A stretch of 64,000 bases of DNA. Origin: Actinomycetota bacterium. Lineage in GTDB: Bacteria > Actinomycetota > UBA4738 > CALAEC01. The stretch lies in assembly GCA_036001425.1 (NCBI GenBank), contig DASYUI010000035.1, positions 1,756 through 65,755 of the forward strand, given 5' to 3'. This document shows, one piece after another, positions 5,929 to 25,890 of this stretch; the first letter of the stretch is position 1; each line of letters starts with the position of its first letter. Both the position numbers and the translations under genes were made by a program. The notes under the pieces were generated by a model. The model saw only the letters and a program-made list of their open reading frames with translations. It ran no database searches and had not been told where the DNA came from.

Positions 5929-6084
5929 CCTCGTTCCCCCGATATCGACGCCGGACATTCCCGACCGTTCGCCAACGGCTCACGAAAATGGGCATTCCGA
6001 GTCTTGTCTTGGCCCACCCCCTTCTGGTACCGTGGCGCGGTTCTGTGGCCAGCTTGGTCAGCTAACCCGGAGGAAAGCCCGCCC

Positions 6085-8994: not shown

Positions 8995-11098
8995 AGCGGA
9001 ACTCGATCTCCGTCAGCGACAGCGCGTTCCCTGCCTGTCCCTCGTAGACGGAATCGATCCGGATATCGATCCTCTTGGTCCCGGCGCCCGAAACCTCCAC
9101 GGGCTGGGGTGCCTTCGTGTCTCCGAGCGTCTCCTTCTCGGTCGCAACGACCCGTCCCCTCGCGTTGATGAACCTCATGGTGATCTCGGCGGGCCGCGGC
9201 TGCTTCGCGAAGCTCTGAGGCGTCTCCTGGTTGCCGGTGGTGAAGATCATCTGGGCGATGTCAACGGGTTCGTTGAAGAGGATCGAGATCCTCTCGCCGG
9301 TTCCGTCACCCGGACCCGATTCCGCCCAGTGGGTGTTGTTCCCATCGTCGATCAAGAGGCTGGCGGGATGTCCTTTCTGCCCCGGGGCCTCTGCGCGGAG
9401 GGCATGGACGGGATTGAAGTCCGGGAAGGCACGAATCTTCACCGCGCAGTACGCACCCTGGACCCCGGAAAGGATCGCCCCTCGCGCGCTCGGGATGACC
9501 ATGCCGCCCGCCAGGCCCAGCAAGGCCAGGACGGCGACGAGCATCCGCAGCTTCCCGAGCATGCCCAGGATCTGCCGGAAGCCGCGCCTCGCGGTCTTGC
9601 CCTTCTGGCCGGCCTTGGCTCGGCCCCGCCGGGTACCGGCCGCCATGGGCTTACGCCCGAAGATCCGCTTATACCAGGGGACCTTCTTGGCGACCTCGGC
9701 CGCCAGCAGCGTGTTCGCGCACCGCCGGCAGAACTTCCGATCGCGGTCGTTGACCTCACCGCACTGGCCGCAGATGAGGTCGCCCGGCTTGGGCTGCCGG
9801 GTCGGCTCCATCTTCACCTGTTGCCTGGCGCGCTTTTCCCTTTGCGCGGCGGGCTTCTGGGCCCCAGGTGTCCGGGCCGCCACGTCCGGGGTGGGAGCCG
9901 TGGGGGGCTTGGCCACGAGCGCCGCCGCCCGATCCGTCCGCTCCTGCTCCTCGGCCTCGGCCAGGAGGCGCCGGGCCTCCTCGTCCTCGCGATGCCGCTG
10001 TGCCTCTTCTTCGGCGCGCTTCCTGGCCTCGGCTTCGGCGCGCTTCCTGGCCTCGGCTTCCTTGCGGGCCTTGGCCACGGCCTCCGCACTGGCCACCATG
10101 GATGCCGCCTGGGAGCGCCGCCGCTCCTCCTCGGAAGCCGCCTGGGTGCGCCGCTGCTCCTCCTCGGAGGCCGCCTGGGAGCGCCGCTGCTCCTCCTCGC
10201 GGGCCTTGCGCTCGGCCTCCTCACGCTGCTTGGCCTCGAACTCCTGGCGGGCCTTGGCCTCCGCTTCTTGCCGCTGCTTGGCCGCCTCCTCCTCACGGAC
10301 CTTGCTCTCGGCCTCCTCACGGGCGTTACGCTCCGCCTCCTCACGAGACCTGCGCTCCGCCTCATCACGCTGGCGGCGGGCCTCCTCCTCGGTGAGCCTG
10401 CGCTCCGCCTGCTCGCGCTCCCTGGCCTCGGCCTCCTCACGGGACTTGCGGTCGGCCTCCTCACGGGACTTGCGGTCGGCCTCCTCCCGGGCCTTGCGCT
10501 CGGCCTCCTCGCGCTCCCGAGTGACCTCGGGGGTCTCGACCTCCGGAACGACCACGGCCAGCTCGGGCTCCGCGGTCTTCACCGACGTGTCCTCAGCGGA
10601 CGCGGCCGGGGCCTCCCCCGTGGACGCCGCGGCCGGCATGGGCCGGGTCACGTCCCGCCGGGGAGGCTCGATCCGTGGCGACCCCGCCGGTTGCGACGGG
10701 CTCACTGTGGGTGCTGTGCCGGAAGCACCCTGCCGTTCCGCGGCCGTGTCCGGTGGCCCGGTTCCTGTCGGGGCAGCCGGTTCGGCATCAACCACAGGGG
10801 TCTCAGGAGCACCCTCGCCGGCGCCGCTCTCCGCGGCGGGCTGCTCAGTGGGCGGAGCCTGCGGAGTCGTTCCGGTCTGTCCGTCGGGCTGGTCTTCGTC
10901 GCCGATCCCCAGGGTGGACTTCACGCGATCCATGAACCCCGCCTTTTCGGGCTCGGGTTCGGGCTGGGATTCGGGCTCGGGTCCGGGCTCCTGCTCCTCG
11001 GTCAGCCTCTCTCCGGCCCACTCGAGAAACGTTCCGCACGAGCCGCAGAACGCGTCGTCGTCCTCGTTCTGGTAGCCGCAGTTCTTACAGATGATCAT
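8981..11098 (-). CDS. zinc-ribbon / charged coiled-coil / zinc-ribbon / TM / discoidin-like (galactose-binding-like) membrane protein; last gene of the CIS operon
   Basis: N-terminal 'CKNCGYQNEDDDAFCGSCG'. About 200 aa of E/R/K/A repeats ('EAERKAREEADRKSREEA'). Second ribbon 'CGQCGEVNDRDRKFCRRC', a basic stretch, then TM 'LRMLVAVLALLGLAGGMVIP'. C-terminal 'LLIDDGNNTHWAE...ISILFNEPVDIAQMIFTTGN...IDIRIDSVYEG...LSLTEIEF' looks like F5/8-type-C. Its ATG overlaps the stop of the gpI-like gene (ATGA at 11095-11098). Confidence 0.85.
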   Translation of the reverse strand: MIICKNCGYQNEDDDAFCGSCGTFLEWAGERLTEEQEPGPEPESQPEPEPEKAGFMDRVKSTLGIGDEDQPDGQTGTTPQAPPTEQPAAESGAGEGAPETPVVDAEPAAPTGTGPPDTAAERQGASGTAPTVSPSQPAGSPRIEPPRRDVTRPMPAAASTGEAPAASAEDTSVKTAEPELAVVVPEVETPEVTREREEAERKAREEADRKSREEADRKSREEAEAREREQAERRLTEEEARRQRDEAERRSREEAERNAREEAESKVREEEAAKQRQEAEAKARQEFEAKQREEAERKAREEEQRRSQAASEEEQRRTQAASEEERRRSQAASMVASAEAVAKARKEAEARKRAEAEARKRAEEEAQRHREDEEARRLLAEAEEQERTDRAAALVAKPPTAPTPDVAARTPGAQKPAAQREKRARQQVKMEPTRQPKPGDLICGQCGEVNDRDRKFCRRCANTLLAAEVAKKVPWYKRIFGRKPMAAGTRRGRAKAGQKGKTARRGFRQILGMLGKLRMLVAVLALLGLAGGMVIPSARGAILSGVQGAYCAVKIRAFPDFNPVHALRAEAPGQKGHPASLLIDDGNNTHWAESGPGDGTGERISILFNEPVDIAQMIFTTGNQETPQSFAKQPRPAEITMRFINARGRVVATEKETLGDTKAPQPVEVSGAGTKRIDIRIDSVYEGQAGNALSLTEIEFRSKSC

Positions 11099-17489: not shown

Positions 17490-19541
17490 CTACAGGTCCG
17501 CCAGTCGCCCGGCGCGCTCCCTGAGGTCTCGCAATTCCTGTCGGAGGAGCCGGGTCATCGGCTCGTACAGCTTGTTTGCGAGTTCCTCCATGTCCTCTTC
17601 CTTTTGAGGCTCGGGGGCCACGGCCGTGACCGGAGCAGCCTCCTCGACCCGCTGGACCGGAGCCACCGGCTCCGACGGCGGGGCATGGAAGGTCACGGAG
17701 CCATCCGCCTGCCGTTGGGCGATGCCCGCGGCCACCGCGGCGGTCGCCGGATCGACGATCGGCGCCGGCGGAGCTCCAGGCTCGGCGGGCGCCCTAGAAA
17801 CCAGCGGCATCTCCGGAGCGGCCCTCCACGCCGACTCCATCGAGCGGGCCTCTGTCTCGAGGCCCTGTCCATCGCTCGTCCTCTCGGCGGGCAGCGCGGG
17901 CCCGAGGCGCCGCTGCTGCGCCGCGTGGACCAGATCGTGCGCCACCAGGGTCCTGCCCTCGCTGGCCTCCAGCGACCCATGGTCGGCGGGGACGTGCACC
18001 TCGCCACCGGTGGTGAACGCGCGTGCCGACATCTGGCGCGCCGCCGTCGCGGTAGAGGCTTCCCTGTGGACCTTGACCTCTCTGAGGTCCACCCCCGTCC
18101 GGCGCTCGACCACCTGCCGTACGGGCTCGGGTGGGGCCTCGCTCGCCCGTTGGACGCGAGCGAGAGGCCGCGCGGACACCAGTGGCGCTACCTGGGGCGG
18201 CGGCTGCGGGCGTCCGGTCCACTCGGCAACCGGAGCCTCAAGGGCCCGGGTCGAGGAGATCGGGGCCTCGCCGACCAGCGGTCCGCTTGGTTCGGGAACG
18301 ATGTCCTCTTCCGGCTCGCCGGGGAGTGTCACCGGGCTCGGCGGCTCGGTCGAAGCAGGCGCCTCTTCCTCAGGAGCCCGCTGGGCCGGACGGGGAGATA
18401 CAGGGAGAGGCAGCTCTTCGGGGGCGCCCTGCACGGACTCGCGTGCGAGTGTCCCCTCTCCCGACACCTGCGCCTTCGAGGCTTGTTCTGCGGGCAGCGG
18501 GGTCAGGCGGCGCGGCACGGGGAGGTCCGGCCCCGTCGCGCGGGGCATCGGGGTTCTGCTCACGGTCATCTCCGGGGCGGCCTCCGAAGGCACTTCGGCT
18601 TCCCGCCCTCCTGTCGCCCACTTCCTGAGGACGGGTCTGCCAGCGAGAGGAGGTCCCTCTCCGACGACGGGCGCCACCTCTGCCATCTCTCCCCCCGAGC
18701 CGGCGATCCCCGGCGCTCGCTGGACGCCGTCCGGGCGGGGAGCCGCCATCTCCGCCTTGTCACCGCCCTCCGCCTTCCCTCTGGGAGACAGGGGCAACCT
18801 CTCGTCAGGTGCCGATGGAGTGGCCCTGGCCGTCATTGGCCGGGAGGTCAGCGGCTCGCCGAGACCGAGGCGCCTGCCGATCAGAGGCGCATCGGGTGAA
18901 GGAGCCCGCTGTACCTCACCGGGGACCGTCTCCTCTCCCTCGGCCGTGGCCTTCCCCGCCGCTTCCTCGGGGGCGGGCGCGGGGGAAGGCTCCGCCTCGC
19001 CGACCCGGCTCACCTGACTCGCCGACTCGGTCTCGGGGACGATCTCGGGCTCGGCGTCGCTGGCCGGCGGCTGCTCAGGAGCCCGCTGGACAGGCGGAAG
19101 CGATAGAGGTTGGAGGGAACGAACCGGCTCCACCTCGGGCATGCGGCCGGCCGGGGGACTCTGGGCCTGAGCGATGGGCGCGCGTTGCGCGGCGGCCCAG
19201 GCGTCCTCCGCCCTCGCGACCGCCGGCTCGTGTCGACGGTCCGGCGGGTGGGAGAAGTCGAGCTCGGGTCCTTCCGTCCGGGCTGCGGCTGGAGTCGCGA
19301 TCCCCGTCGCGATTCCGCCGGGGGCCTCGGTTCTCACGTCGTGTCCGAGCGGCTCCAGGAAATGCTCGAGCGGATGACGCGTGCCGAGGTCGTGAACGAA
19401 CCCTTCGGAATGAGCCGAGGGTTCGATGGGATCCACGGCGCGCTGGATGGGAGGCAGCGACCGCCATGCGGCCGGCTCCGAACGGGATGTCGGTCCCGCT
19501 AGAGTCGGAGCCGGCCGAGGTCGGCGAAACGGCCAGCGCAC
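17490..19541 (-). CDS. tape-measure-position protein with DUF4157 (eCIS core) domain and repeated [VIA]QRAP motifs
   Basis: 683 aa, GTG start. The N-terminal two thirds are Pro/Ala/Glu-rich and disordered. DUF4157-like segment 'VERRTGVDLREVKVHREASTATAARQMSARAFTTGGEVHVPAD...LVAHDLVHAAQQ'. C-terminal helix 'EEDMEELANKLYEPMTRLLRQELRDLRERAGRLADL'. It lies between the chaperone-like genes and tube 2, which is the tape-measure slot in P2-like tails. Confidence 0.8.
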   Translation of the reverse strand: MRWPFRRPRPAPTLAGPTSRSEPAAWRSLPPIQRAVDPIEPSAHSEGFVHDLGTRHPLEHFLEPLGHDVRTEAPGGIATGIATPAAARTEGPELDFSHPPDRRHEPAVARAEDAWAAAQRAPIAQAQSPPAGRMPEVEPVRSLQPLSLPPVQRAPEQPPASDAEPEIVPETESASQVSRVGEAEPSPAPAPEEAAGKATAEGEETVPGEVQRAPSPDAPLIGRRLGLGEPLTSRPMTARATPSAPDERLPLSPRGKAEGGDKAEMAAPRPDGVQRAPGIAGSGGEMAEVAPVVGEGPPLAGRPVLRKWATGGREAEVPSEAAPEMTVSRTPMPRATGPDLPVPRRLTPLPAEQASKAQVSGEGTLARESVQGAPEELPLPVSPRPAQRAPEEEAPASTEPPSPVTLPGEPEEDIVPEPSGPLVGEAPISSTRALEAPVAEWTGRPQPPPQVAPLVSARPLARVQRASEAPPEPVRQVVERRTGVDLREVKVHREASTATAARQMSARAFTTGGEVHVPADHGSLEASEGRTLVAHDLVHAAQQRRLGPALPAERTSDGQGLETEARSMESAWRAAPEMPLVSRAPAEPGAPPAPIVDPATAAVAAGIAQRQADGSVTFHAPPSEPVAPVQRVEEAAPVTAVAPEPQKEEDMEELANKLYEPMTRLLRQELRDLRERAGRLADL

Positions 19542-19547
19542 GTCCGG

Positions 19548-19706
19548 TCACCCCTCTTCCGCGAGGCGCCGGTTGATCCGGCCGATTTCCTCCACGAAAC
19601 GCTGGCGCAGGGAATGCTCGAGGTCGAGGATCTCGTCCAGCGACCAGTGGAAATGGTAGGCCACGTACGCAACCTCCTCATAGAGACGGTCGGTTGCGTA
19701 CGTCAT
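19548..19706 (-). CDS. 52-aa conserved-looking small protein (resembles the eCIS-associated family I recall as DUF6760)
   Basis: Below the ORF-track cutoff. Translates to MTYATDRLYEEVAYVAYHFHWSLDEILDLEHSLRQRFVEEIGRINRRLAEEG. Its ATG overlaps the upstream stop (ATGA), and it is in the -1 frame relative to the upstream gene. Confidence 0.65.
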   Translation of the reverse strand: MTYATDRLYEEVAYVAYHFHWSLDEILDLEHSLRQRFVEEIGRINRRLAEEG

Positions 19707-20125
19707 GATCCCCCCGGTGCACCACCGGCCACATCGACCGTGAACTCATGCTCGCAGGAGGGGCACGTCACGGTGGCCCGTGTGTGCCCCTCCTGGTTGA
19801 TCCGTCGATACAGGTCCTGCAGGAACGCCAGGTCGGAGGCGAACAGACCTTCGATCGTGGCCGGCGTCACCTCCCGGAGGTCGCCGAGCTGCGTGACCAC
19901 CCGGGACAGAAGGAGCACCGTGAGGTACGCCTCGTTGTCGCGAACCCTCGGGTCCCGGAGCGGGAGAATCTCGTCCCGTGCCGTGGCCAAGCGGATGACA
20001 CCCCGCTTGTGCGTGGTCCCCGAGTCGTCCGTGTACCCGATGGGTAGCTCGAACTCGAACTCCGTCCGTACGGCCTCGCCACGCGATTCCCGGCCGGCCA
20101 CCTCCGCTGGGCTCGGCGCTCTCAT
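19703..20125 (-). CDS. tail-assembly-chaperone-like protein (gpE/gpG position) with C-terminal CxxC
   Basis: 'FEFELPIGYTDDSGTTHKRGVIRLATARDEILPLRDPRVRDNEAYLTVLLLSRVVTQLG...TVTCPSCEHEF'. Sits directly after the tube gene and before the tape-measure-like gene. Its ATG overlaps the tube stop (ATGA at 20122-20125). Confidence 0.7.
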   Translation of the reverse strand: MRAPSPAEVAGRESRGEAVRTEFEFELPIGYTDDSGTTHKRGVIRLATARDEILPLRDPRVRDNEAYLTVLLLSRVVTQLGDLREVTPATIEGLFASDLAFLQDLYRRINQEGHTRATVTCPSCEHEFTVDVAGGAPGGS

Positions 20126-20571
20126 GCGGGAGCGAGTCCTTCGTGGACGATGGTGCACTCCTCGACGAGGATGTCGTTCCCCGAAGCCGAGAGCGCACCG
20201 ATGCTCACCTTTGACGGCCAGCCGTTCACGAAGTTGAACCGGCCCACCTCGCCTCTGGCGTAGTCGTACAGGACCACCGAGCCGTTCCTGCGGGCGGTCT
20301 CGATGTTCCCGTCCTGGACCTCCTTGATCCAGTCCCAGAGGGCCTTGTCGTTCGTCTTCCCGTGCTTGAGCGTGATGGGCCCGAACTTCTTCGCCCCGGG
20401 GAGCTGCTTCATCAGGGCGAGACCGCCCAACTTGTTCTCCCGGTGCTCGATCACCTGGATCTCGGCCGAGAGACCGCTCACTTCCTTGAACTGGGCCATC
20501 GAGACGCCGTCGATCTCGATCTGGAAGGTATAACCAGCGACTGCGTCTCCTCCGGCGATATCAATTCCCAC
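20122..20571 (-). CDS. tail tube protein (Afp1-like, T4 gp19 family)
   Basis: 'YTFQIEIDGVSMAQFKEVSGLSAEIQVIEHRENKLGG...KQLPGAKKFGPITLKHGKTNDKALWDWIKEV'. Confidence 0.9.
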   Translation of the reverse strand: MGIDIAGGDAVAGYTFQIEIDGVSMAQFKEVSGLSAEIQVIEHRENKLGGLALMKQLPGAKKFGPITLKHGKTNDKALWDWIKEVQDGNIETARRNGSVVLYDYARGEVGRFNFVNGWPSKVSIGALSASGNDILVEECTIVHEGLAPA

Positions 20572-20617: not shown

Positions 20618-22153
20618 CTACTCCGACACCTCCGCGCCGCCCGAGAACTGGGCGAGACGGAACACCACGAACTCGGCCGGCTTGACCGGCGCGATGCCGA
20701 TCTCCACCGTGACCTGTCCGGCGTCCACCATGTCCGGGGGGTTGGTCTCCTCGTCGCACTTGACGAAGAAGGCCGCCTCCGGGGTGGCCCCGAACAGGGC
20801 CCCATCCCGCCACAGCCGGAGCAGGAAGGAGGTGATCGTCCGGCGGAGCCGGGCCCAGAGGTCCATGTCGTTCGGCTCGAACACGACCCACTGGGTGCCG
20901 AGCAGGATCGACTCCTCGATGTAGTTGAAGAGCCGACGGACGTTGATGTACCGCCATGCGGAATCGCTGGACAGGGTCCTCGCGCCCCACACCCTGATTC
21001 CCCGGCCGGGGAAGGCCCGGATGACGTTGACCCCGATGGGGTTCAGGAGGTCGTGCTCGGCCTTGGTGATATTGGTCTCGAGGGTGATCGCTCCCCTGAT
21101 GACCTCGTTCGCGGGAGCCTTGTGCACGCCCCGGGTGTCGTCGTTTCGGCCCCAGATACCGGCCAGGTGGCCGCTCGGTGGCACGAACGTGTTCTGTCCG
21201 CTGGCCGGGTCGAACACCTTGATCCACGGCCAGTACAGAACGGCGAACTTGGAGTCGTAGCCGGCCTTGTCGACCCGCCACTCGCGGATCTGCTGAGCGG
21301 TCAGGCCGGGCGGCGCGTCCAGGACCGCCATCCGGTCACCCATGTTCTCGCAGTGCGCGATCATGGCTAGCTGGACCGCCTGGAGCCCCTCGAGGTCGAT
21401 CATGCCCTTCTGGTAGGCGGCCATGAGGTCCGGGCAGGACACCATGGTCACCTCGTCGATGGCCTCTAGACCTCCGAGGCCCGTCCGGTCCGCGGCGTCG
21501 CCGACGTAGTCCTCGGGAGCGATCCGAGTGGGCGCAGGGGCCCCGCCGCCAGCCAGGCTGACCTTGCTGCCGGTGGCCGGCCGACGCTCCAGCGTGGAAG
21601 CCGAGCCCACCTCTTGGAGCTGGATGAGCTTCGACTCCGCGTTGACCACCGTGACGGCGTTCTGCTTTCCCTTCTTCGTCGTCAGGTTGTCGAAGGACTC
21701 CTCGACCTTGGTTCCCCGCTTCACGACGAGCTTGAAGGTCTCTTCCTTCTCACCTTCCGAGGCGTCCTGCACCTCGACGGTGAGGTCGTTGCCGGCGGTG
21801 CCCTCCTCCAGCGCGAGCACGCGGTAGGCCGACAGGTCTTCCTTGGCCCCGCTGGGCAGCTCGCCCCGGGCGGTGGGTGGGCCGGCGCCGTCCTGTCCTA
21901 CGCGGACCACGTACGCCGCGCCGCCGCCATTGTTGAAGTAGCCGTACACCGCGTGGGCCAGGTACGAGCCCTCGATGAAGTCACCGAAGGTCTGCGAGAA
22001 CTGGCTCCAGTTGGTGACCAGGGTCGGGGTGTTCACGGGTCCCTGCGCCGCCATCCCCGCGAACGCGGCGACGGCGGTCCCCACACCCTCGATCGGTCGA
22101 GACCCGGCCTCTACTTCCTCTACGTAGACGCCGGGCGACAAGTACTGAGGCAT
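20618..22153 (-). CDS. contractile tail sheath protein (Afp2-4-like)
   Basis: 'MPQYLSPGVYVEEVEAGSRPIEGVGTAVAAFAGMA' is the canonical sheath N-terminus. C-terminal 'GVNVIRAFPGRGIRVWGARTL'. RBS GGAGAGGAGG. Confidence 0.95.
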   Translation of the reverse strand: MPQYLSPGVYVEEVEAGSRPIEGVGTAVAAFAGMAAQGPVNTPTLVTNWSQFSQTFGDFIEGSYLAHAVYGYFNNGGGAAYVVRVGQDGAGPPTARGELPSGAKEDLSAYRVLALEEGTAGNDLTVEVQDASEGEKEETFKLVVKRGTKVEESFDNLTTKKGKQNAVTVVNAESKLIQLQEVGSASTLERRPATGSKVSLAGGGAPAPTRIAPEDYVGDAADRTGLGGLEAIDEVTMVSCPDLMAAYQKGMIDLEGLQAVQLAMIAHCENMGDRMAVLDAPPGLTAQQIREWRVDKAGYDSKFAVLYWPWIKVFDPASGQNTFVPPSGHLAGIWGRNDDTRGVHKAPANEVIRGAITLETNITKAEHDLLNPIGVNVIRAFPGRGIRVWGARTLSSDSAWRYINVRRLFNYIEESILLGTQWVVFEPNDMDLWARLRRTITSFLLRLWRDGALFGATPEAAFFVKCDEETNPPDMVDAGQVTVEIGIAPVKPAEFVVFRLAQFSGGAEVSE

Positions 22154-22369: not shown

Positions 22370-23068
22370 TTACGTGGCGGCGGGTGCTTCCTCTTCTTCT
22401 TCTTCTTCGGTGGCCTCTTGGGTGGCGACTTCCTCTTCTTCCTCTTCCGCCTCGCGGCCCACCGGAGCAGTCTGGAGCTCTTCTTCCTCTTCCGCCTCGC
22501 GGCCCACCGACGCTCCCGCATCGCTCCGTGCGGTGACCCTGTCCGCTACCGCGCTCGCTTGCTGCTCGGAGGCGTCGCCGGGGTCGGAGACTTCGAGCTT
22601 CTGCGCAGGCGGGGCGTTCCGCTGCTGGACCACGTGGGTCAGCTCGTGCGCCAGGAGCTTGTCCCCGTCGCCGCTTCCCGGCTGGTACTCGCCGGAACGG
22701 AAGAAGATGTCCTGCCCCGTGGTGAAGGCCTTGGCCTTGACCGACCGTGACAGCGAGTCCGCCTCCGTGTCGTTGTGAACGCGCACGCCGGAGAAGTCCT
22801 CGCCCATGGTTCGCTCCATCTTCTGGCGAGACCCCTCATCCAGGGTCGAGCCCCCTCCTCGCTTGGACTGGATGGCCCGGGCGATGGTGTCGTCGACGTC
22901 CGCTCCCTTCGCCCCCTTCATCTGCACACGTAGCTTCGGAACCAGTCGCTGCATGGCCTGGTTTCCAAGACGGCCCTCGCCGCCGGTCGGGTCCTTCGAA
23001 CGCGCCGCCTCACCCTCGGCGGGCTTCCGCGAGGACTTCCGGACCTCGTCGATGTCGAACGAATCCAT
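22370..23068 (-). CDS. DUF4157 (eCIS core domain) zincin-like protein with intact HExxH and poly-Glu tail
   Basis: 'STLDEGSRQKMERTMGEDFSGVRVHNDTEADSLSRSVKAKAFTTGQDIFFRSGEY...LLAHELTHVVQQ'. The C-terminus carries 'VGREAEEEEE' twice and an EEEEEEE run. Confidence 0.85.
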   Translation of the reverse strand: MDSFDIDEVRKSSRKPAEGEAARSKDPTGGEGRLGNQAMQRLVPKLRVQMKGAKGADVDDTIARAIQSKRGGGSTLDEGSRQKMERTMGEDFSGVRVHNDTEADSLSRSVKAKAFTTGQDIFFRSGEYQPGSGDGDKLLAHELTHVVQQRNAPPAQKLEVSDPGDASEQQASAVADRVTARSDAGASVGREAEEEEELQTAPVGREAEEEEEEVATQEATEEEEEEEAPAAT

Positions 23069-23086: not shown

Positions 23087-25177
23087 CTACAGGCGCGGCG
23101 GGCCATCCAACGCCTCGCTTGTCGACACCAGGTGGAAATATGGTCCGAACTCCGCCTCCACGCACAACCGCCCGAGCTTGCGGTACTCGCGCTGGACCCC
23201 TCGGATGAGGTCCTCCACCGAAACGGATCTCTCCGCGTCCGCCGCCAGGTACGCAGCCGTGACGCAGATGTTCCGGATGTTCCCACCGGAGAATTCGAAG
23301 GACTTGGCCAGGAAATCGAGGTCCAGGTCTCCCTCCCTGGGGACCTCCGGGCTCAGGCACTTCTCCCACAGCGAACGGCGATGTCTCTCATCGGGCATGG
23401 GGAAGTCCACGATGACGTCGAGCCTTCGGGTGAACGCCTCGTCGAGGTTGGCCCTCAGGTTGGTGGCCAGGATGGCCATCCCCTCGAAGGTCTCCATCCG
23501 CTGCAGCAGGTATGCCACCTCGATGTTGGCGTAGCGGTCGTGGGCGTCCTTGACCTCGGACCTCTTTCCGAACAACGCGTCCGCCTCGTCGAAGAAGAGG
23601 ACGCCGTTGACACCCTCCGCCTCGGAGAAGATGCGTTCGAGGTTCTTCTCGGTCTCTCCGATGTACTTGTCCACCACGGTGGCCAGGTCGATCGTGTAGA
23701 GGTCCAGCCCGAGCTCGCCGGATAGCACCTCCGCGGCCATGGTCTTCCCGGTCCCGGACTCACCCGCGAACAGGGCCGTGATCCCCCCGCCCCGGCCGCC
23801 CCCCTTCCGCATCCCCCACTCCCCGAGGACGCGCTCCCGGTACCGCGCCCGGGCGGACAACTCGTGGAGGTGAGCGAGGGTATCGGCCGGGAGGACGATG
23901 TCTTGCCACCCAACCGCCGGCTCGATCCGGCGGGCCAGCCTCTCCAACCCAGCGGCGTTCTGGGCCCGGGCCCCCGCCCTGAGGTCGGTCGGGTCAATGG
24001 ATCGGCCGGCGTAGGAGGCTCGCAGGCGAGCGGCCGTGGCCGCCCTGGCCACCTGTTCGGGGCCGAGGCGGAAGGGGGTCATGACCGCCGCCGCGTCCAG
24101 CTCCTTCGGGGTGTCGCCGTCGAGGTGGGCCCGCCACATGCCGGCTCGCTCCTCCGGCCCGGGGAGGCCGACGTCGACGACCAGCGGGATCTCCCGTGAC
24201 CACATGGGGTCCCAGTTCCGTGTCCCGGTGATCACCACGGGCCAGGGGATCTCGGCGAATGCCCGCACGCCGAGCGCTCCGCGCTCCACGACCTGTTCGA
24301 CCGGCCCCACCACCAGACCAGCCCCTCGCAGGCCCGCCTCGCGCCCCGCCGCTGCGGCGATGGCGGTGGGGTCGTCGTCAACGGTCAGTCGAGCCAGGTC
24401 GAGGGCCAGCGTGGGGATCCCCATCCCGGCGAAGGCGGCCGCGGCAAGCCCTCGTCCCGCGCCCGCCAGCCGCTCCCGCAGGTAGCAGAGCCGCGCGCCC
24501 TCGGCGATGGCGCGAGCCAGGGCCTCCCCGTCTTGCTCGTCCCAGCTGATCGGAGAGGCCAGGAGTGTGGTGAGCGCGTGGTCGGGGCGGTCGTCGCCCA
24601 AGAGATGAGCCGCGACCCGGTCCGGGACCCGCAGGGTCCGCGTGAGGAACGGCCGATCGGGGTCCTCCACCAGGATGAGCCCCGCCTCGACCAGAGGGCT
24701 TCCCCCCTGTAGCCTTCGCCGGGCGCGGGCGTCGGCCGGTGAGGCTCCGCACAGTTCCAGAGACAGGCCCACGCTGGCCCGCCGGCGGGTCACGTCGTCG
24801 TGCAGATACCCGTAGAGGCGTTCGAACCGCGCGTCGAGGTCCGGCGCCAGCGAAACGAGGAGAAGCTCGGCATCGAGGGGCTCGAGATCGAAGGTCTTTG
24901 CCAGGCGCCGGAGCCGGATGTCCTCTCCCTCGGCCTCAGCGGTGTCGGCGGCCTTCTCCACGCGCGACAGGTCCTCGGCTGCCGCGGGATCGGGCGGGGG
25001 CGGTGGGGCCGGGGCATCCAGGAGCTGGTCGACCTGCTCTTCCGTGAGGTAGAGACCACGGAAGGGGTCGTCGGGTTCCGGGTCTCCGGCCCGGCGGCGG
25101 TTGACTGCCGCCTTCACGCGAGCCTCCACGACGGCCAAGCGACCCAGGAGGTGCTCGAGCGATGGAGACGGCTTCAT
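23087..25177 (-). CDS. AAA+ ATPase (Afp15-like)
   Basis: Walker A 'FAGESGTGKTMAAEVL', Walker B 'VLFFDEADALFGKR', and 'ILATNLRANLDEAFTRRLD'. ATG 25177 overlaps the DUF4255 stop (ATGA). The ORF-track extension to 25624 is Arg/Pro-rich, a frame artefact. Confidence 0.9.
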   Translation of the reverse strand: MKPSPSLEHLLGRLAVVEARVKAAVNRRRAGDPEPDDPFRGLYLTEEQVDQLLDAPAPPPPPDPAAAEDLSRVEKAADTAEAEGEDIRLRRLAKTFDLEPLDAELLLVSLAPDLDARFERLYGYLHDDVTRRRASVGLSLELCGASPADARARRRLQGGSPLVEAGLILVEDPDRPFLTRTLRVPDRVAAHLLGDDRPDHALTTLLASPISWDEQDGEALARAIAEGARLCYLRERLAGAGRGLAAAAFAGMGIPTLALDLARLTVDDDPTAIAAAAGREAGLRGAGLVVGPVEQVVERGALGVRAFAEIPWPVVITGTRNWDPMWSREIPLVVDVGLPGPEERAGMWRAHLDGDTPKELDAAAVMTPFRLGPEQVARAATAARLRASYAGRSIDPTDLRAGARAQNAAGLERLARRIEPAVGWQDIVLPADTLAHLHELSARARYRERVLGEWGMRKGGGRGGGITALFAGESGTGKTMAAEVLSGELGLDLYTIDLATVVDKYIGETEKNLERIFSEAEGVNGVLFFDEADALFGKRSEVKDAHDRYANIEVAYLLQRMETFEGMAILATNLRANLDEAFTRRLDVIVDFPMPDERHRRSLWEKCLSPEVPREGDLDLDFLAKSFEFSGGNIRNICVTAAYLAADAERSVSVEDLIRGVQREYRKLGRLCVEAEFGPYFHLVSTSEALDGPPRL

Positions 25178-25890
25178 CGGGAATCGCGGGAGCGGGTGCT
25201 CCTTCCGGCCTTCGCCTGCTTCCCGGCCGGCTTTCGCTCCTCTTCCTTCTCCTTCGTAGCGTCCCCGTTGCCGGACAAGGTGCGCTGCACCCGACCACCT
25301 GCCTGGTCTCGCGTGCCTTCTGGGCCGGCGAGCTTGACGACGGGCTCCGCGAGCACCGGCGGGCCCGCCTCGACCATCCGGCGGGGGTCGAACGGCGCGG
25401 TGATCACCAGGTCCAGTGAGGGCTTGAGCTCTCCGCCAAGTGCGGACCAGACGTCGGAGAGGTTTCGGTCCTTGGGGGGCGGCAGCCCCACCTGAGAGAT
25501 GACGGCCAGCGGCTGGTCGGCCAGCGATCCGACGAGCACGTCTCGAGGCAGCGCGTCGCGACGGAGGAAGCAGGTCAGCACCGCCGCAAGGAGCCGGTGC
25601 TCGTCCTCCGGACGCTGGGTCCACGCGGTGAGGAGATAGGAAAGCTTGAATCGCCGAGGAGGCGGCCGTCGTTCGGTCACCCGGCCGGTCTTGTCCCTGA
25701 TCTCCTCGTACTCGACCTGGCGCCGCTCGAGGTCCTCCCGGATGTCGTACAGGTAGACGCTGACCGTGGGACTGTTGCGGCGGGCCGCCCAGTCCTTCGT
25801 CGGCGCGTCGAACGTCACCTCGACGTCGGCGCCGTTCAGCGCCTCGCGCCGGATGAGGTTCCGGAGCGCCTCATCGACCTCGTGGATCAT
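25174..25890 (-). CDS. DUF4255 / Pvc16-Afp16-like tail terminator (cap) protein
   Basis: 'MIHEVDEALRNLIRREAL...VEVTFDAPTKDWAARRNSPTVSVYLYDIREDLERRQ...FKLSYLLTAWTQRPEDEHRLLAAVLTCF' is the typical Pvc16 N-terminal domain pattern. Confidence 0.85.
   Translation of the reverse strand: MIHEVDEALRNLIRREALNGADVEVTFDAPTKDWAARRNSPTVSVYLYDIREDLERRQVEYEEIRDKTGRVTERRPPPRRFKLSYLLTAWTQRPEDEHRLLAAVLTCFLRRDALPRDVLVGSLADQPLAVISQVGLPPPKDRNLSDVWSALGGELKPSLDLVITAPFDPRRMVEAGPPVLAEPVVKLAGPEGTRDQAGGRVQRTLSGNGDATKEKEEERKPAGKQAKAGRSTRSRDSR

What the first reader, a model, noticed from the sequence alone, without database searches (positions are those of the whole stretch)
19548..20125. Candidate -1 programmed frameshift (G GGG GGA) fusing the chaperone-like gene to the 52-aa ORF, as in phage G/GT and E/E+E'
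On the coding strand the 140-aa gene ends ...GCA CCG GGG GGA TCA TGA.

- The heptamer G GGG GGA (plus-strand 19709-19715) sits in the X XXY YYZ register of the zero frame, two codons before the stop.
- A -1 slip continues ATC ATG ACG TAC..., which is exactly the frame of the 52-aa ORF. The result would be a fusion of about 190 aa.
- The gene pair sits between tube and tape measure. That is the slot where dsDNA phages have a conserved tail-assembly-chaperone frameshift (lambda G/GT, P2 E/E+E').
- The same junction is also an ATGA stop/start overlap, so termination-reinitiation is the competing explanation.
Basis: partly seen in the sequence, partly recalled or inferred. Interest (0 to 1): 0.7.

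Follow-up and report, generated by a model that had tools for sequence, protein, structure and literature searches.

The report
Conserved frameshift in injection-system chaperone gene
A phage-tail-like injection system in this bacterium very probably makes two versions of its tail-assembly chaperone from one gene by a programmed -1 ribosomal slip, as tailed phages do. The signal is conserved across many bacterial phyla but is not annotated in the finished RefSeq records I inspected.

Summary
On the minus strand the 140-aa gene (19703-20125) ends CCG GGG GGA TCA TGA. The heptamer G GGG GGA (19709-19715) is in X XXY YYZ register. The 52-aa ORF (19548-19706, Pfam DUF6760) lies in the -1 frame.

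Comparative evidence strongly favours a real -1 programmed frameshift over ATGA termination-reinitiation:
- DUF6760 is in the -1 frame in every analysable homologous locus (79 close, 65 distant, plus others in finished genomes).
- The slip site is G GGG GAA/GGG/GGA. GGGGGAA is a documented slip motif of actinophage tail-chaperone genes.
- Some lower-GC lineages carry T TTT TTA/C/G or C CCT TTC instead, still in register.
- The DUF6760 start codon is dispensable: CTG in 24 of 80 close loci, and no canonical start in 54 of 65 distant loci.
- A hairpin 5 nt downstream (19663-19703) shows covariation in both clades.
- One lineage has the two ORFs fused in frame, has lost the G-run, and carries an extra chaperone-only paralog. 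It therefore encodes the short and long forms as two genes.

The predicted products are a 140-aa chaperone and a 192-aa chaperone-DUF6760 fusion, analogous to lambda G/GT and P2 E/E+E'. I found no paper reporting this for contractile injection systems. No experiment has been done.

The parts
19703..20125 (-). Tail-assembly-chaperone-like gene (140 aa). This is the zero-frame, short product. It has a C-terminal CPxC...zinc-ribbon-like stretch and a variable tail ending GGS-stop.
   Evidence: The ORF and its translation are. An identical 140-aa protein, P0001, and more than 7900 homologues were found. It matches PHROG phrog_508 'tail assembly chaperone' at E=4e-6. The AF2 model has pLDDT 73.5. 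Its best structural matches are T4-like baseplate hub assembly proteins (E 3e-7), with weaker matches to a TAC and to Mu FS-gp41. The top two PDB ranks are the HK97 TAC 2ob9 and YqbN, neither significant. No Pfam or NCBIfam family reaches threshold.
19709..19715 (-). Slippery heptamer G GGG GGA, in X XXY YYZ register, one sense codon before the stop.
   Evidence: Close clade: G GGG GAA 49, GGG 17, GGA 6 of 80. Distant clade: GGGGGAA 29, GGGGGGG 13, GGGGGGA 9, GGGGGAG 1, T TTT TTA/C/G 7, C CCT TTC 4 of 65. The slip-site Gly codon is GGG in 76 of 78 loci, whereas other invariant Gly columns in the same genes mostly use GGC or GGT.
19704..19708 (-). 5-nt spacer (TCATG) between the heptamer and the core stem. 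It contains the ATG of the small ORF and part of the TGA stop.
19663..19703 (-). Stimulatory hairpin candidate. The 5' arm is ACGUACGCAACC (19692-19703), the loop is 17 nt (19675-19691), and the 3' arm is GGUUGCGUACGU (19663-19674).
   Evidence: The 83-nt region folds at -37.1 kcal/mol, z = -3.5, with 0 of 200 shuffles as good. Close clade: 88% of cells paired against 15-46% with slid partners; 10 of 15 pairs show double changes; 0 of 500 shuffles reach the observed values. Loci with a different local sequence still form a stem at the same place (L001, L031, L078). The distant clade has a hairpin at the same distance built from different codons: 87% paired, and 41 double-change cells against 13 +/- 3.
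19548..19709 (-). The -1 frame extension, which is the DUF6760 ORF (52 aa from its ATG at 19706). It would form the C-terminal 53 residues of the predicted 192-aa fusion.
   Evidence: Pfam PF20546 DUF6760, E=3.5e-15, 56 bits against a cut-off of 27. It is in the -1 frame in all 79 close loci and all 65 distant loci that could be analysed. The fusion sequence was derived.
20122..20571 (-). Context: tail tube gene directly upstream. Its stop overlaps the chaperone ATG (ATGA).
   Evidence: Phage_T4_gp19 E=1.7e-36; TIGR02241; junction sequence.
17490..19541 (-). Context: 683-aa eCIS_core (DUF4157) protein directly downstream. It is the probable tape-measure-related protein and the inferred client of the chaperone.
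   Evidence: PF13699 E=3.2e-18. It is the positional equivalent of Streptomyces davawensis Tme, which is a DUF4157 protein, a remote tape-measure homologue, and lies immediately upstream of the baseplate genes (PMC11126660).

Best explanation
The 140-aa gene and the 52-aa DUF6760 ORF form one recoded gene of an extracellular contractile injection system (eCIS).

Proposed mechanism:
- Most ribosomes terminate at TGA and make the 140-aa tail-assembly chaperone.
- A fraction slips back one nucleotide on G GGG GGA. The P-site tRNA-Gly re-pairs GGG to GGG, and the A-site tRNA-Gly re-pairs GGA to GGG.
- A 12-bp G+C-rich hairpin starting 5 nt downstream helps the slip.
- The slipped ribosome continues through ATC ATG ACG... 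and makes a 192-aa chaperone-DUF6760 fusion.

By analogy with lambda G/GT and P2 E/E+E', I infer that the short form coats the tape-measure-like protein. I infer that the long form, through DUF6760, links the complex to the tape-measure protein or to the tube during assembly, at a fixed low ratio.

Shown here (comparatively): the conserved slip site, its register, the frame relation, the dispensable start codon, the covarying hairpin, and a natural fusion accompanied by a short paralog.

Inferred, not shown: the actual slip, its efficiency, and the roles of the two products. Because this window has an ATG, some free DUF6760 may also be made here.
For: 1. Frame. DUF6760 is in the -1 frame in 79 of 79 close loci and 65 of 65 distant loci. 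The same holds in finished genomes of Streptomyces, Rhodococcus, Paraburkholderia, Nostoc and Paenibacillus.

2. Slip site. It is an in-register G GGG G[AG][AG] in 72 of 80 close loci. GGGGGAA is the 'fivetwo' slip motif of about a thousand SEA-PHAGES tail-chaperone frameshifts, with tRNA-Glu re-pairing on GGA through G:U (PMC10885494). It is also proposed for corynephage phi16.

3. Replacement by other slippery heptamers. These are still in register, with the -1 frame open: T TTT TTA/C/G (7 loci; TTTTTTG is the P2 E/E+E' site, PMC3091744), C CCT TTC (4 loci), G GGA AAA (L009) and C CCG GGG (L091). T-runs cannot be Shine-Dalgarno sequences.

4. Codon choice.
- The slip-site Gly is GGG in 76 of 78 loci, while other invariant Gly columns use GGC or GGT.
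- The slip-site Glu, where present, is GAA although GAG dominates about 5:1 overall.
- The only invariant residue in the hypervariable C-terminal tail is this Gly.

5. Start codon not needed.
- CTG stands at the overlap codon in 24 of 80 close loci, close to the background TCC:TCG usage.
- 11 close loci have no canonical start anywhere in the open -1 frame.
- 54 of 65 distant loci have none.
- The RefSeq CDS for DUF6760 starts at CTG, ATA or an internal TTG in the finished genomes checked, and the ORF was not called at all in L086.

6. The stop position floats (0 to 36 nt after the heptamer). The distance from the heptamer to the DUF6760 N-terminus is fixed.

7. A hairpin lies 5 nt downstream and shows covariation in both clades.

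8. Natural experiment.
- In L081/L082 the two parts are fused in frame and the G-run and hairpin are gone.
- L081 carries an extra 108-aa chaperone-only paralog immediately upstream (45% identical to the chaperone part of the fusion; matches phrog_508).
- That lineage therefore encodes the short and long forms as two genes.

9. Neighbouring genes in the window use GGAGG-type SDs 6-11 nt upstream of the start. DUF6760 has only the G-run, 3 nt before the ATG.
Against: - There is no experimental evidence of any kind: no fusion peptide and no reporter data.
- In this window, and in 55 of 80 close loci, a canonical start codon overlaps the stop. Coupled reinitiation is therefore possible and may coexist with frameshifting.
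- Three loci (L064, L068, L129) have lost the heptamer and carry a GGAGG-type SD plus a start codon. Free DUF6760 can therefore apparently suffice in some lineages.
- A few loci with a heptamer have only a weak hairpin (L009, L014, L024).
- The majority heptamer G GGG GAA is non-canonical at the A site. It needs a G:U pair at the middle position.
- The chaperone assignment rests on weak similarities. There is no Pfam hit, and the PDB fold matches are not significant.
- Most apparent 'fusion' proteins in the database are frame-error artefacts.
Confidence: 0.85

Rival explanations
1. Two ordinary genes joined only by translational coupling. Ribosomes terminate at TGA and reinitiate at the overlapping ATG (ATGA). 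The G-run serves as a Shine-Dalgarno-like retention site. The hairpin hides the start codon, so DUF6760 is made only when the upstream gene is translated. No fusion protein is produced.
For: - The window has an ATGA overlap.
- 55 of 80 close loci have ATG, GTG or TTG at that codon.
- In many loci the stem includes the start and stop codons.
- L064, L068 and L129 show that the small ORF can carry its own GGAGG-type SD and start codon.
- RefSeq annotates two separate genes.
Against: - The overlap codon is CTG in 24 of 80 close loci, and 54 of 65 distant loci have no canonical start.
- Most distant loci end in TAG or TAA with no NTGA overlap.
- The heptamer is replaced by TTTTTTA/C/G or CCCTTTC in register. 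These are slippery but are not SDs.
- The G-run is never GGAGG and sits only 3-4 nt from the start, unlike the real SDs of the same operon.
- In L094, L117 and L157 the conserved DUF6760 N-terminus is encoded upstream of the chaperone stop.
- A natural in-frame fusion exists together with a short paralog.
Confidence: 0.08
2. The fusion is made by transcriptional slippage. RNA polymerase stutters on the G-run and inserts one extra G in a fraction of mRNAs, which puts DUF6760 in frame. The ribosome does not slip.
For: A homopolymer run is the conserved core in most loci. The T6 runs in some lineages resemble known polymerase-slippage tracts. Sequence analysis alone cannot separate the two routes to the same fusion.
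Against: - The runs are short (5-7 G). From established knowledge, bacterial polymerase slippage usually needs about 8-9 A or T.
- Heteropolymeric heptamers (C CCT TTC, G GGA AAA, C CCG GGG) fit tandem tRNA slippage, not stuttering.
- The register of the motif relative to the zero frame is conserved. That matters for ribosomes, not for polymerase.
- A covarying hairpin at the classical 5-nt spacing points to a ribosomal mechanism.
Confidence: 0.04
3. Chance. A G-rich codon pair in a high-GC genome happens to sit next to a routine ATGA overlap and has no function.
For: GGGGGRR occurs 73 times in the window. NTGA overlaps always place the downstream gene in the -1 frame.
Against: The motif, its register, the frame relation and the hairpin are conserved across more than 150 loci. 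These loci have GC content from 36% to 75% and come from at least eight phyla. Codon choice at the site runs against the genomic bias.
Confidence: 0.01

Closest known systems
Lambda G/GT tail assembly chaperone frameshift (Xu et al. 2004 class)
   Same: Two overlapping ORFs lie between the tube (major tail) gene and the tape-measure gene. A -1 slip at an in-register heptamer near the end of the first ORF gives a short product and a longer product that share an N-terminus. One related locus (L009) even uses G GGA AAA, close to lambda's G GGA AAG. The lambda motif is from my own knowledge. The general class is described in PMC3091744 and PMC10885494.
   Different: - The host element is a cellular contractile injection system, not a phage.
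- The extension is only about 53 aa and belongs to DUF6760, with no detected similarity to T.
- No sequence similarity to gpG was detected.
- A conserved downstream hairpin is present.
P2 E/E+E' (and Mu gp41/FS-gp41) in contractile-tailed phages
   Same: Both belong to contractile tails and have the gene order sheath, tube, chaperone, tape measure. The sizes are similar: E is 91 aa and E+E' is 142 aa, so the extension is about 51 aa (PMC3091744). One related eCIS locus (L128) uses P2's own T TTT TTG. A relative, P0272, has sub-threshold hits to Phage_TAC_7 (the E/gp41 family, E=1e-3) and Gp41_Mu. Mu FS-gp41 appears among the fold matches.
   Different: P2 has no downstream secondary structure, whereas this element has a covarying hairpin. 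The window protein itself has no Pfam hit to these families. Here the usual heptamer is a G-run.
Actinobacteriophage tail assembly chaperone frameshift at GGGGGAA (SEA-PHAGES 'fivetwo' motif; corynephage phi16)
   Same: The slippery sequence and register are the same: G GGG GAA, with tRNA-Glu re-pairing on GGA through G:U. This is the majority motif among the homologous eCIS loci. Phi16 is also proposed to use a downstream RNA structure.
   Different: Those are siphophage genes. tblastn of the predicted fusion against 50,697 phage records found nothing. The window itself uses the canonical variant G GGG GGA.
ATGA/GTGA termination-reinitiation coupling of adjacent bacterial genes
   Same: In the window the stop and start codons overlap by 4 nt, as in the very common coupled gene pairs.
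   Different: In coupled pairs the start codon is required. In this family it is frequently absent, while the slip site is kept.

Membership tests
Tail-assembly-chaperone -1 programmed frameshift (G/GT, E/E+E' type) | Two ORFs located between the tube/major tail gene and the tape-measure gene | tested here: met
   The order is tube 20122-20571, chaperone-like 19703-20125, DUF6760 19548-19706, then the 683-aa eCIS_core protein 17490-19541. The tape-measure identity of the last gene is inferred from Streptomyces Tme. In some distant loci a second tube gene sits between DUF6760 and the long protein.
Tail-assembly-chaperone -1 programmed frameshift (G/GT, E/E+E' type) | The second ORF is in the -1 frame of the first, and the -1 frame is open from the slip site | tested here: met
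   True in the window, in 79 of 79 close loci and in 65 of 65 distant loci.
Tail-assembly-chaperone -1 programmed frameshift (G/GT, E/E+E' type) | A slippery heptamer in zero-frame register near the end of the first ORF, conserved or replaced by another slippery heptamer | tested here: met
   The window has G GGG GGA. Homologues have G GGG GAA/GGG/GGA/GAG, T TTT TTA/C/G, C CCT TTC, G GGA AAA or C CCG GGG, all in register.
Tail-assembly-chaperone -1 programmed frameshift (G/GT, E/E+E' type) | The second ORF lacks its own translation start | tested here: inconclusive
   The window has an ATG, though with no GGAGG-type SD and with the G-run only 3 nt upstream. Across the family the start is dispensable: CTG in 24 of 80 close loci, and no canonical start in 54 of 65 distant loci.
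Tail-assembly-chaperone -1 programmed frameshift (G/GT, E/E+E' type) | The first ORF is a tail assembly chaperone | tested here: inconclusive
   phrog_508 TAC matches at E=4e-6 for the window protein and about 1e-6 for relatives. Fold matches are to T4-like hub assembly proteins (E 3e-7), a TAC (E 0.03) and Mu FS-gp41 (E 0.04). The HK97 TAC ranks top in the PDB search but at E=0.3. Public sources name relatives 'phage tail assembly protein' (NCBI/RefSeq) or 'FluMu gp41' (JGI).
Tail-assembly-chaperone -1 programmed frameshift (G/GT, E/E+E' type) | Both the short and the frameshifted long protein are made, and both are needed | not testable with these tools
   There is only indirect support. L081 encodes a chaperone-only paralog plus an in-frame chaperone-DUF6760 fusion, with the slip signals lost.
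Pfam PF20546 DUF6760 | Score above the Pfam gathering threshold | tested here: met
   56.2 bits against a cut-off of 27, E=3.5e-15, covering residues 3-50.
Pfam PF10109 Phage_TAC_7 (P2 E, Mu gp41, gp14) / PF23746 Gp41_Mu | Score above the Pfam gathering threshold | tested here: not met
   The window protein gives no hit even at E<=10. The relative P0272 scores 19.4 bits (cut-off 25) and 17.7 bits (cut-off 27). I therefore do not file it as a member. The resemblance is functional and, at most, a remote homology.
Termination-reinitiation coupled gene pair | A canonical start codon overlapping or adjacent to the upstream stop, conserved among orthologues | tested here: not met
   It is present in the window, but it is not conserved across orthologues.
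Rfam frameshift-element families | A covariance-model match | tested here: not met
   Only two chance miRNA-model matches (E>4) were found in 19400-19900.

The most novel reading that the evidence does not exclude
A deeply conserved ribosomal recoding event sits in cellular, non-viral operons. A whole lineage of extracellular contractile injection systems spans Actinomycetota, Chloroflexota, Cyanobacteriota, Bacillota, Pseudomonadota, KSB1 and others. This lineage has kept the phage tail-chaperone -1 frameshift (G GGG GAA-type heptamer plus hairpin).

On this reading DUF6760 is the counterpart of the phage 'T/E'' domain. The chaperone and chaperone-DUF6760 pair would be the hitherto undescribed tape-measure chaperone of these machines.

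RefSeq-style annotation currently hides the event, using CTG, ATA or internal start codons or missing the gene altogether. I found no paper describing it.
Probability: 0.5. Interest if true: 0.65.

Novelty: new member of a known kind. Interest (0 to 1): 0.58.

Why it matters
- **It gives a function to a domain of unknown function.** DUF6760 would be the frameshift-appended C-terminal module of the eCIS tail assembly chaperone.
- **It supplies a missing part of a model.** It identifies a likely chaperone pair for the tape-measure-related protein. A 2026 preprint still calls eCIS length determination 'not well understood'.
- **It matters for engineering.** Engineered or heterologous expression of these systems, and codon optimisation of their operons, would destroy the G-run and the hairpin and so lose the long form.
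- **It matters for annotation.** Many DUF6760 genes are probably mis-started or missed by gene callers. In long-read MAGs, homopolymer errors at the G-run create false fusions.
- **It shows persistence of a viral recoding signal.** The signal has survived domestication of a phage tail into a cellular machine across many phyla.

Tried and rejected
- **Phage search.** tblastn of the predicted fusion against the phage collection found no match, so no direct phage homologue could be used.
- **Family searches.** Pfam and NCBIfam gave nothing for the 140-aa protein.
- **Structure search.** The PDB fold search gave only non-significant TAC hits.
- **Database 'fusions'.** The search of 1.84 billion representatives with the fusion sequence returned several proteins that span the junction. 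Most (P0134, P0150, P0213, P0247) are frame-error junk and were rejected. Only the P0176/P0271/P0272 clade is a clean in-frame fusion.
- **L005.** It shows chaperone, DUF6760 and the long protein as one ORF. It comes from a MAG with an 'MFD' isolate name, which I take (from memory, not checked here) to be Nanopore-based. I treated it as a homopolymer error, not as evidence.
- **RNAalifold on the distant clade.** It did not return the hairpin. The structure was then specified by hand and tested by pair counts and controls. This leans towards the proposed structure, although the slid and shuffled controls are far lower.
- **Rfam and operon signals.** Rfam has no matching family. No promoter or terminator lies between the genes.
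- **G-run as Shine-Dalgarno sequence.** I considered this and rejected it because of the T-rich replacement heptamers, the 3-4 nt spacing and the absence of start codons.
- **Literature.** Searches for DUF6760, and for eCIS or contractile injection combined with frameshift or chaperone, found nothing relevant. The library covers open-access papers only.
Full report
**What is in the window.** The window is high-GC DNA. An identical protein is recorded from an Actinomycetota MAG. On the minus strand it carries an extracellular contractile injection system (eCIS) cluster, in this order:
- Pvc16-like cap (25174-25890)
- AAA ATPase
- a 232-aa eCIS_core protein
- sheath (20618-22153)
- tube (20122-20571)
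- the 140-aa gene of the finding (19703-20125)
- the 52-aa ORF (19548-19706)
- a 683-aa eCIS_core/DUF4157 protein (17490-19541)
- a second tube-like protein
- a LysM/CIS_tube protein, VgrG, gp25 and baseplate J

**The observation.** It holds to the base. The coding strand reads GCA CCG GGG GGA TCA TGA. GGGGGGA is at 19709-19715 in X XXY YYZ register. The ATG of the small ORF overlaps the stop (ATGA). The -1 frame reads GGG GGG ATC ATG ACG TAC.... A slip would give a 192-aa protein.

**What the two ORFs are.** The small ORF is a clear member of Pfam DUF6760 (E=3.5e-15). No paper in the searchable library mentions that family. The 140-aa protein has no Pfam or NCBIfam family, but several weak lines point to a tail assembly chaperone:
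- It hits PHROG phrog_508 'tail assembly chaperone' (E=4e-6), as do its distant relatives.
- Its AF2 model (pLDDT 73.5) best resembles T4-like baseplate hub assembly proteins. Weaker matches are to a TAC and to Mu FS-gp41.
- The HK97 TAC ranks top in the PDB search, without significance.
- Relatives are named 'phage tail assembly protein' by NCBI or 'FluMu gp41' by JGI.
- One relative has sub-threshold hits to the P2 E / Mu gp41 Pfam families.

'Chaperone-like' is therefore reasonable but weakly supported.

**Close homologues.** The family is very large: more than 7900 hits. I fetched 80 loci from GTDB genomes, with 62-81% protein identity, mostly Actinomycetota, Chloroflexota and Dormibacterota.
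- DUF6760 is in the -1 frame in all 79 loci where it could be located.
- One codon before the stop there is an in-register G GGG GAA (49 loci), G GGG GGG (17) or G GGG GGA (6). Single cases carry G GGA AAA, G GGG GAC and G GGG AAA.
- The codon overlapping the stop, where the window has ATG, is GTG in 48 loci, CTG in 24, ATG in 5 and TTG in 2.
- That split is close to the background TCG:TCC usage in these genes (197:166). A start codon at this position is therefore not under visible selection.
- Eleven loci have no canonical start anywhere in the open -1 frame.

**Codon choice.** The slip-site glycine is GGG in 76 of 78 loci. Other invariant glycines in the same genes are GGC in 53 of 80, GGC in 45 of 80, and GGT in 48 of 80. 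The slip-site glutamate, where present, is GAA, although GAG outnumbers GAA about 5:1 overall. In protein alignments this Gly is the only invariant position in an otherwise hypervariable C-terminal tail. That pattern indicates constraint on the nucleotides rather than on the protein.

**The majority heptamer is a known slip site.** The PRFect paper reports GGGGGAA as the 'fivetwo' motif in about a thousand annotated SEA-PHAGES frameshift sites, nearly all of them tail assembly chaperone genes. It explains the motif by tRNA-Glu re-pairing on GGA through a G:U pair (PMC10885494). Corynephage phi16 is proposed to use the same sequence with a downstream pseudoknot (PMC5506516).

**Distant homologues settle the rivalry with reinitiation.** I read loci from three further sources:
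- contigs encoding distant relatives
- IMG/VR
- finished genomes in PLSDB

I also read 80 metagenome loci anchored on a KSB1 relative. GC content ranges from 36% to 75%. The finished genomes or named organisms include Siccirubricoccus, Paraburkholderia, Rhodococcus, Streptomyces, Nostoc and Paenibacillus.
- DUF6760 is again in the -1 frame in 65 of 65 analysable metagenome loci.
- In-register heptamers there are GGGGGAA 29, GGGGGGG 13, GGGGGGA 9 and GGGGGAG 1.
- In several lower-GC lineages the G-run is replaced by T TTT TTA (4), T TTT TTC (2), T TTT TTG (1; P2's own E/E+E' site, PMC3091744) or C CCT TTC (4). In each case the -1 frame is open from the heptamer into DUF6760.
- These replacements are slippery but cannot act as Shine-Dalgarno sequences.
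- 54 of 65 loci have no canonical start codon for the conserved DUF6760 N-terminus. Most end the first ORF in TAG or TAA, so there is no NTGA overlap.
- The stop lies 0 to 36 nt after the heptamer, while the distance from the heptamer to the DUF6760 N-terminus stays constant. In L094, L117 and L157 the conserved N-terminal DUF6760 residues are encoded upstream of the chaperone stop.
- The RefSeq CDS for DUF6760 begins at CTG (S. cadmiisoli), ATA (Nostoc) or an internal TTG (Rhodococcus). No gene was called at all in the KSB1 contig.
- Only three loci (L064, L068, L129) have lost the heptamer. All three have a GGAGG-type SD and a start codon instead.

**RNA structure.** In the window a 12-bp stem (ACGUACGCAACC / GGUUGCGUACGU, 19692-19703 with 19663-19674) starts 5 nt after the heptamer. 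The 83-nt region folds with z = -3.5.
- Across the close clade, 88% of cells pair, against 15-46% when partners are slid. Ten of 15 pairs show changes on both sides, including third-codon-position pairs (GC 47, CG 10, AU 4, GU 4). No shuffle in 500 reaches the observed values.
- Loci whose local sequence differs (L001, L031, L078) still form a stem at the same place.
- The distant clade has a hairpin at the same 5-nt distance, built from different codons (GGCUACC.CCUCG / CGAGG.GGUAGCC). There 87% of cells pair against 35-60% slid, and 41 cells show double changes against 13 +/- 3.
- RNAalifold alone did not find the distant-clade hairpin.
- The hairpin is weak in a few loci that keep the heptamer (L009, L014, L024). 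In the SD-bearing loci L064 and L068 no equivalent stem is predicted at this position. In the in-frame fusion loci the equivalent stretch folds only weakly, at about -14 to -16 kcal/mol.

**A natural experiment.** One clade (P0176, P0271, P0272, 80-88% identical to each other) has the chaperone and DUF6760 fused in one frame inside an eCIS cluster.
- In these loci the G-run has decayed (CTG ACA GGT GAA ACG ATC GGT...).
- The L081 contig carries, immediately upstream, an extra 108-aa chaperone-only paralog. It is 45% identical to the chaperone part of the fusion and also matches phrog_508.
- That lineage thus encodes a short form and a long form as two genes. This is what a frameshift delivers from one gene, and it argues that the fusion is a functional product.

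**Mechanism and limits.** The best reading is a -1 programmed ribosomal frameshift at G GGG GGA, stimulated by the downstream hairpin. It would give a 140-aa chaperone and a 192-aa chaperone-DUF6760 fusion, analogous to lambda G/GT and P2 E/E+E'. The assignment of roles is inference by analogy and by gene position: the short form coating the tape-measure-related protein, and the long form tethering it through DUF6760. The following are not established:
- Nothing here measures frameshifting.
- The window's ATG means that free DUF6760 may also be made.
- Transcriptional slippage cannot be formally excluded. However, the register conservation, the heteropolymeric heptamers and the hairpin all argue for the ribosome.

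**Novelty.** Tail-chaperone frameshifting is a classic feature of long-tailed phages. I found no report of it for contractile injection systems.
- Searches combining eCIS or contractile injection with frameshift or chaperone returned nothing relevant.
- Two Streptomyces CIS papers that discuss the tape-measure-related effector mention neither a chaperone nor a frameshift.
- A 2026 preprint states that eCIS length determination is not well understood.
- The search covers open-access literature only.

I file it as a new member of a known kind. It is of moderate interest because of its breadth, the function it gives DUF6760, and its consequences for annotation and engineering.

Noticed in passing
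L081:5668-5994 and 6001-6480: In the lineage where the chaperone and DUF6760 are fused in frame, a chaperone-only paralog (108 aa, 45% identical to the chaperone part of the fusion) sits directly upstream. This looks like gene duplication replacing the frameshift.
   Followed up: partly
proteins P0121-P0124, sequence of P0121: Some relatives of 244-252 aa match the chaperone query in two stretches. The one sequence I read (P0121) has two chaperone domains in tandem, each with its own CPxC motif. Their context and meaning were not examined.
   Followed up: no
L005:2501-4849: In a MAG with an 'MFD' isolate name (Nanopore-assembled as far as I recall, not checked), the chaperone, DUF6760 and the long downstream protein read as one ORF. 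Across the junction it reads ...GGAPGGIVTYATDR, exactly the predicted frameshift product. This is probably a homopolymer error at the G-run, and a warning for long-read assemblies.
   Followed up: partly
L100:1875, L096:2887, L099:1878, L083:3414, L086:3370-3543: The annotated DUF6760 CDS starts at CTG, ATA or an internal TTG/CTG codon in these records, and the ORF is not called at all in L086. This is a symptom of the missing start codon.
   Followed up: yes
window 19716-19735 (-) and equivalent positions in L001-L080: A conserved Gly 2-3 codons upstream of the slip site prefers GGT (48 of 80), against the GGC bias. This gives GGTGGT, GGTGAT or GGTGAG, which resembles the GGUGAUC part of an extended Shine-Dalgarno sequence. 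It may be an upstream stimulator of the slip. Not tested.
   Followed up: no
L064, L068 (Dormibacterota) and L129: Three loci have lost the slippery heptamer and carry a GGAGG-type Shine-Dalgarno sequence plus GTG/ATG for DUF6760. In these lineages the small protein is apparently made on its own.
   Followed up: partly
window 17490-19541 (-) and 22370-23068 (-): Two eCIS_core (DUF4157) proteins flank the sheath-tube-chaperone block. The 232-aa one keeps an HExxH-like LLAHELTHVVQQ. The 683-aa one has LVAHDLVHAAQQ, with Glu replaced by Asp.
   Followed up: no
whole window: GGGGGRR is about half as frequent as in dinucleotide-preserving shuffles (73 against 144 +/- 18). G-runs therefore seem to be avoided in this genome.
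   Followed up: no
window 8981-11098 (-): A 705-aa ORF next to the cluster has an N-terminal zinc-ribbon-like CxxC...CxxC and a long, highly charged EEAERKAREE-type repeat region. Its function was not examined.
   Followed up: no
window 20122-20125 (-): The tube gene stop and the chaperone gene start also overlap as ATGA. The whole stretch from tube through the chaperone gene to DUF6760 has no promoter-like or terminator-like site on the coding strand between the genes.
   Followed up: partly
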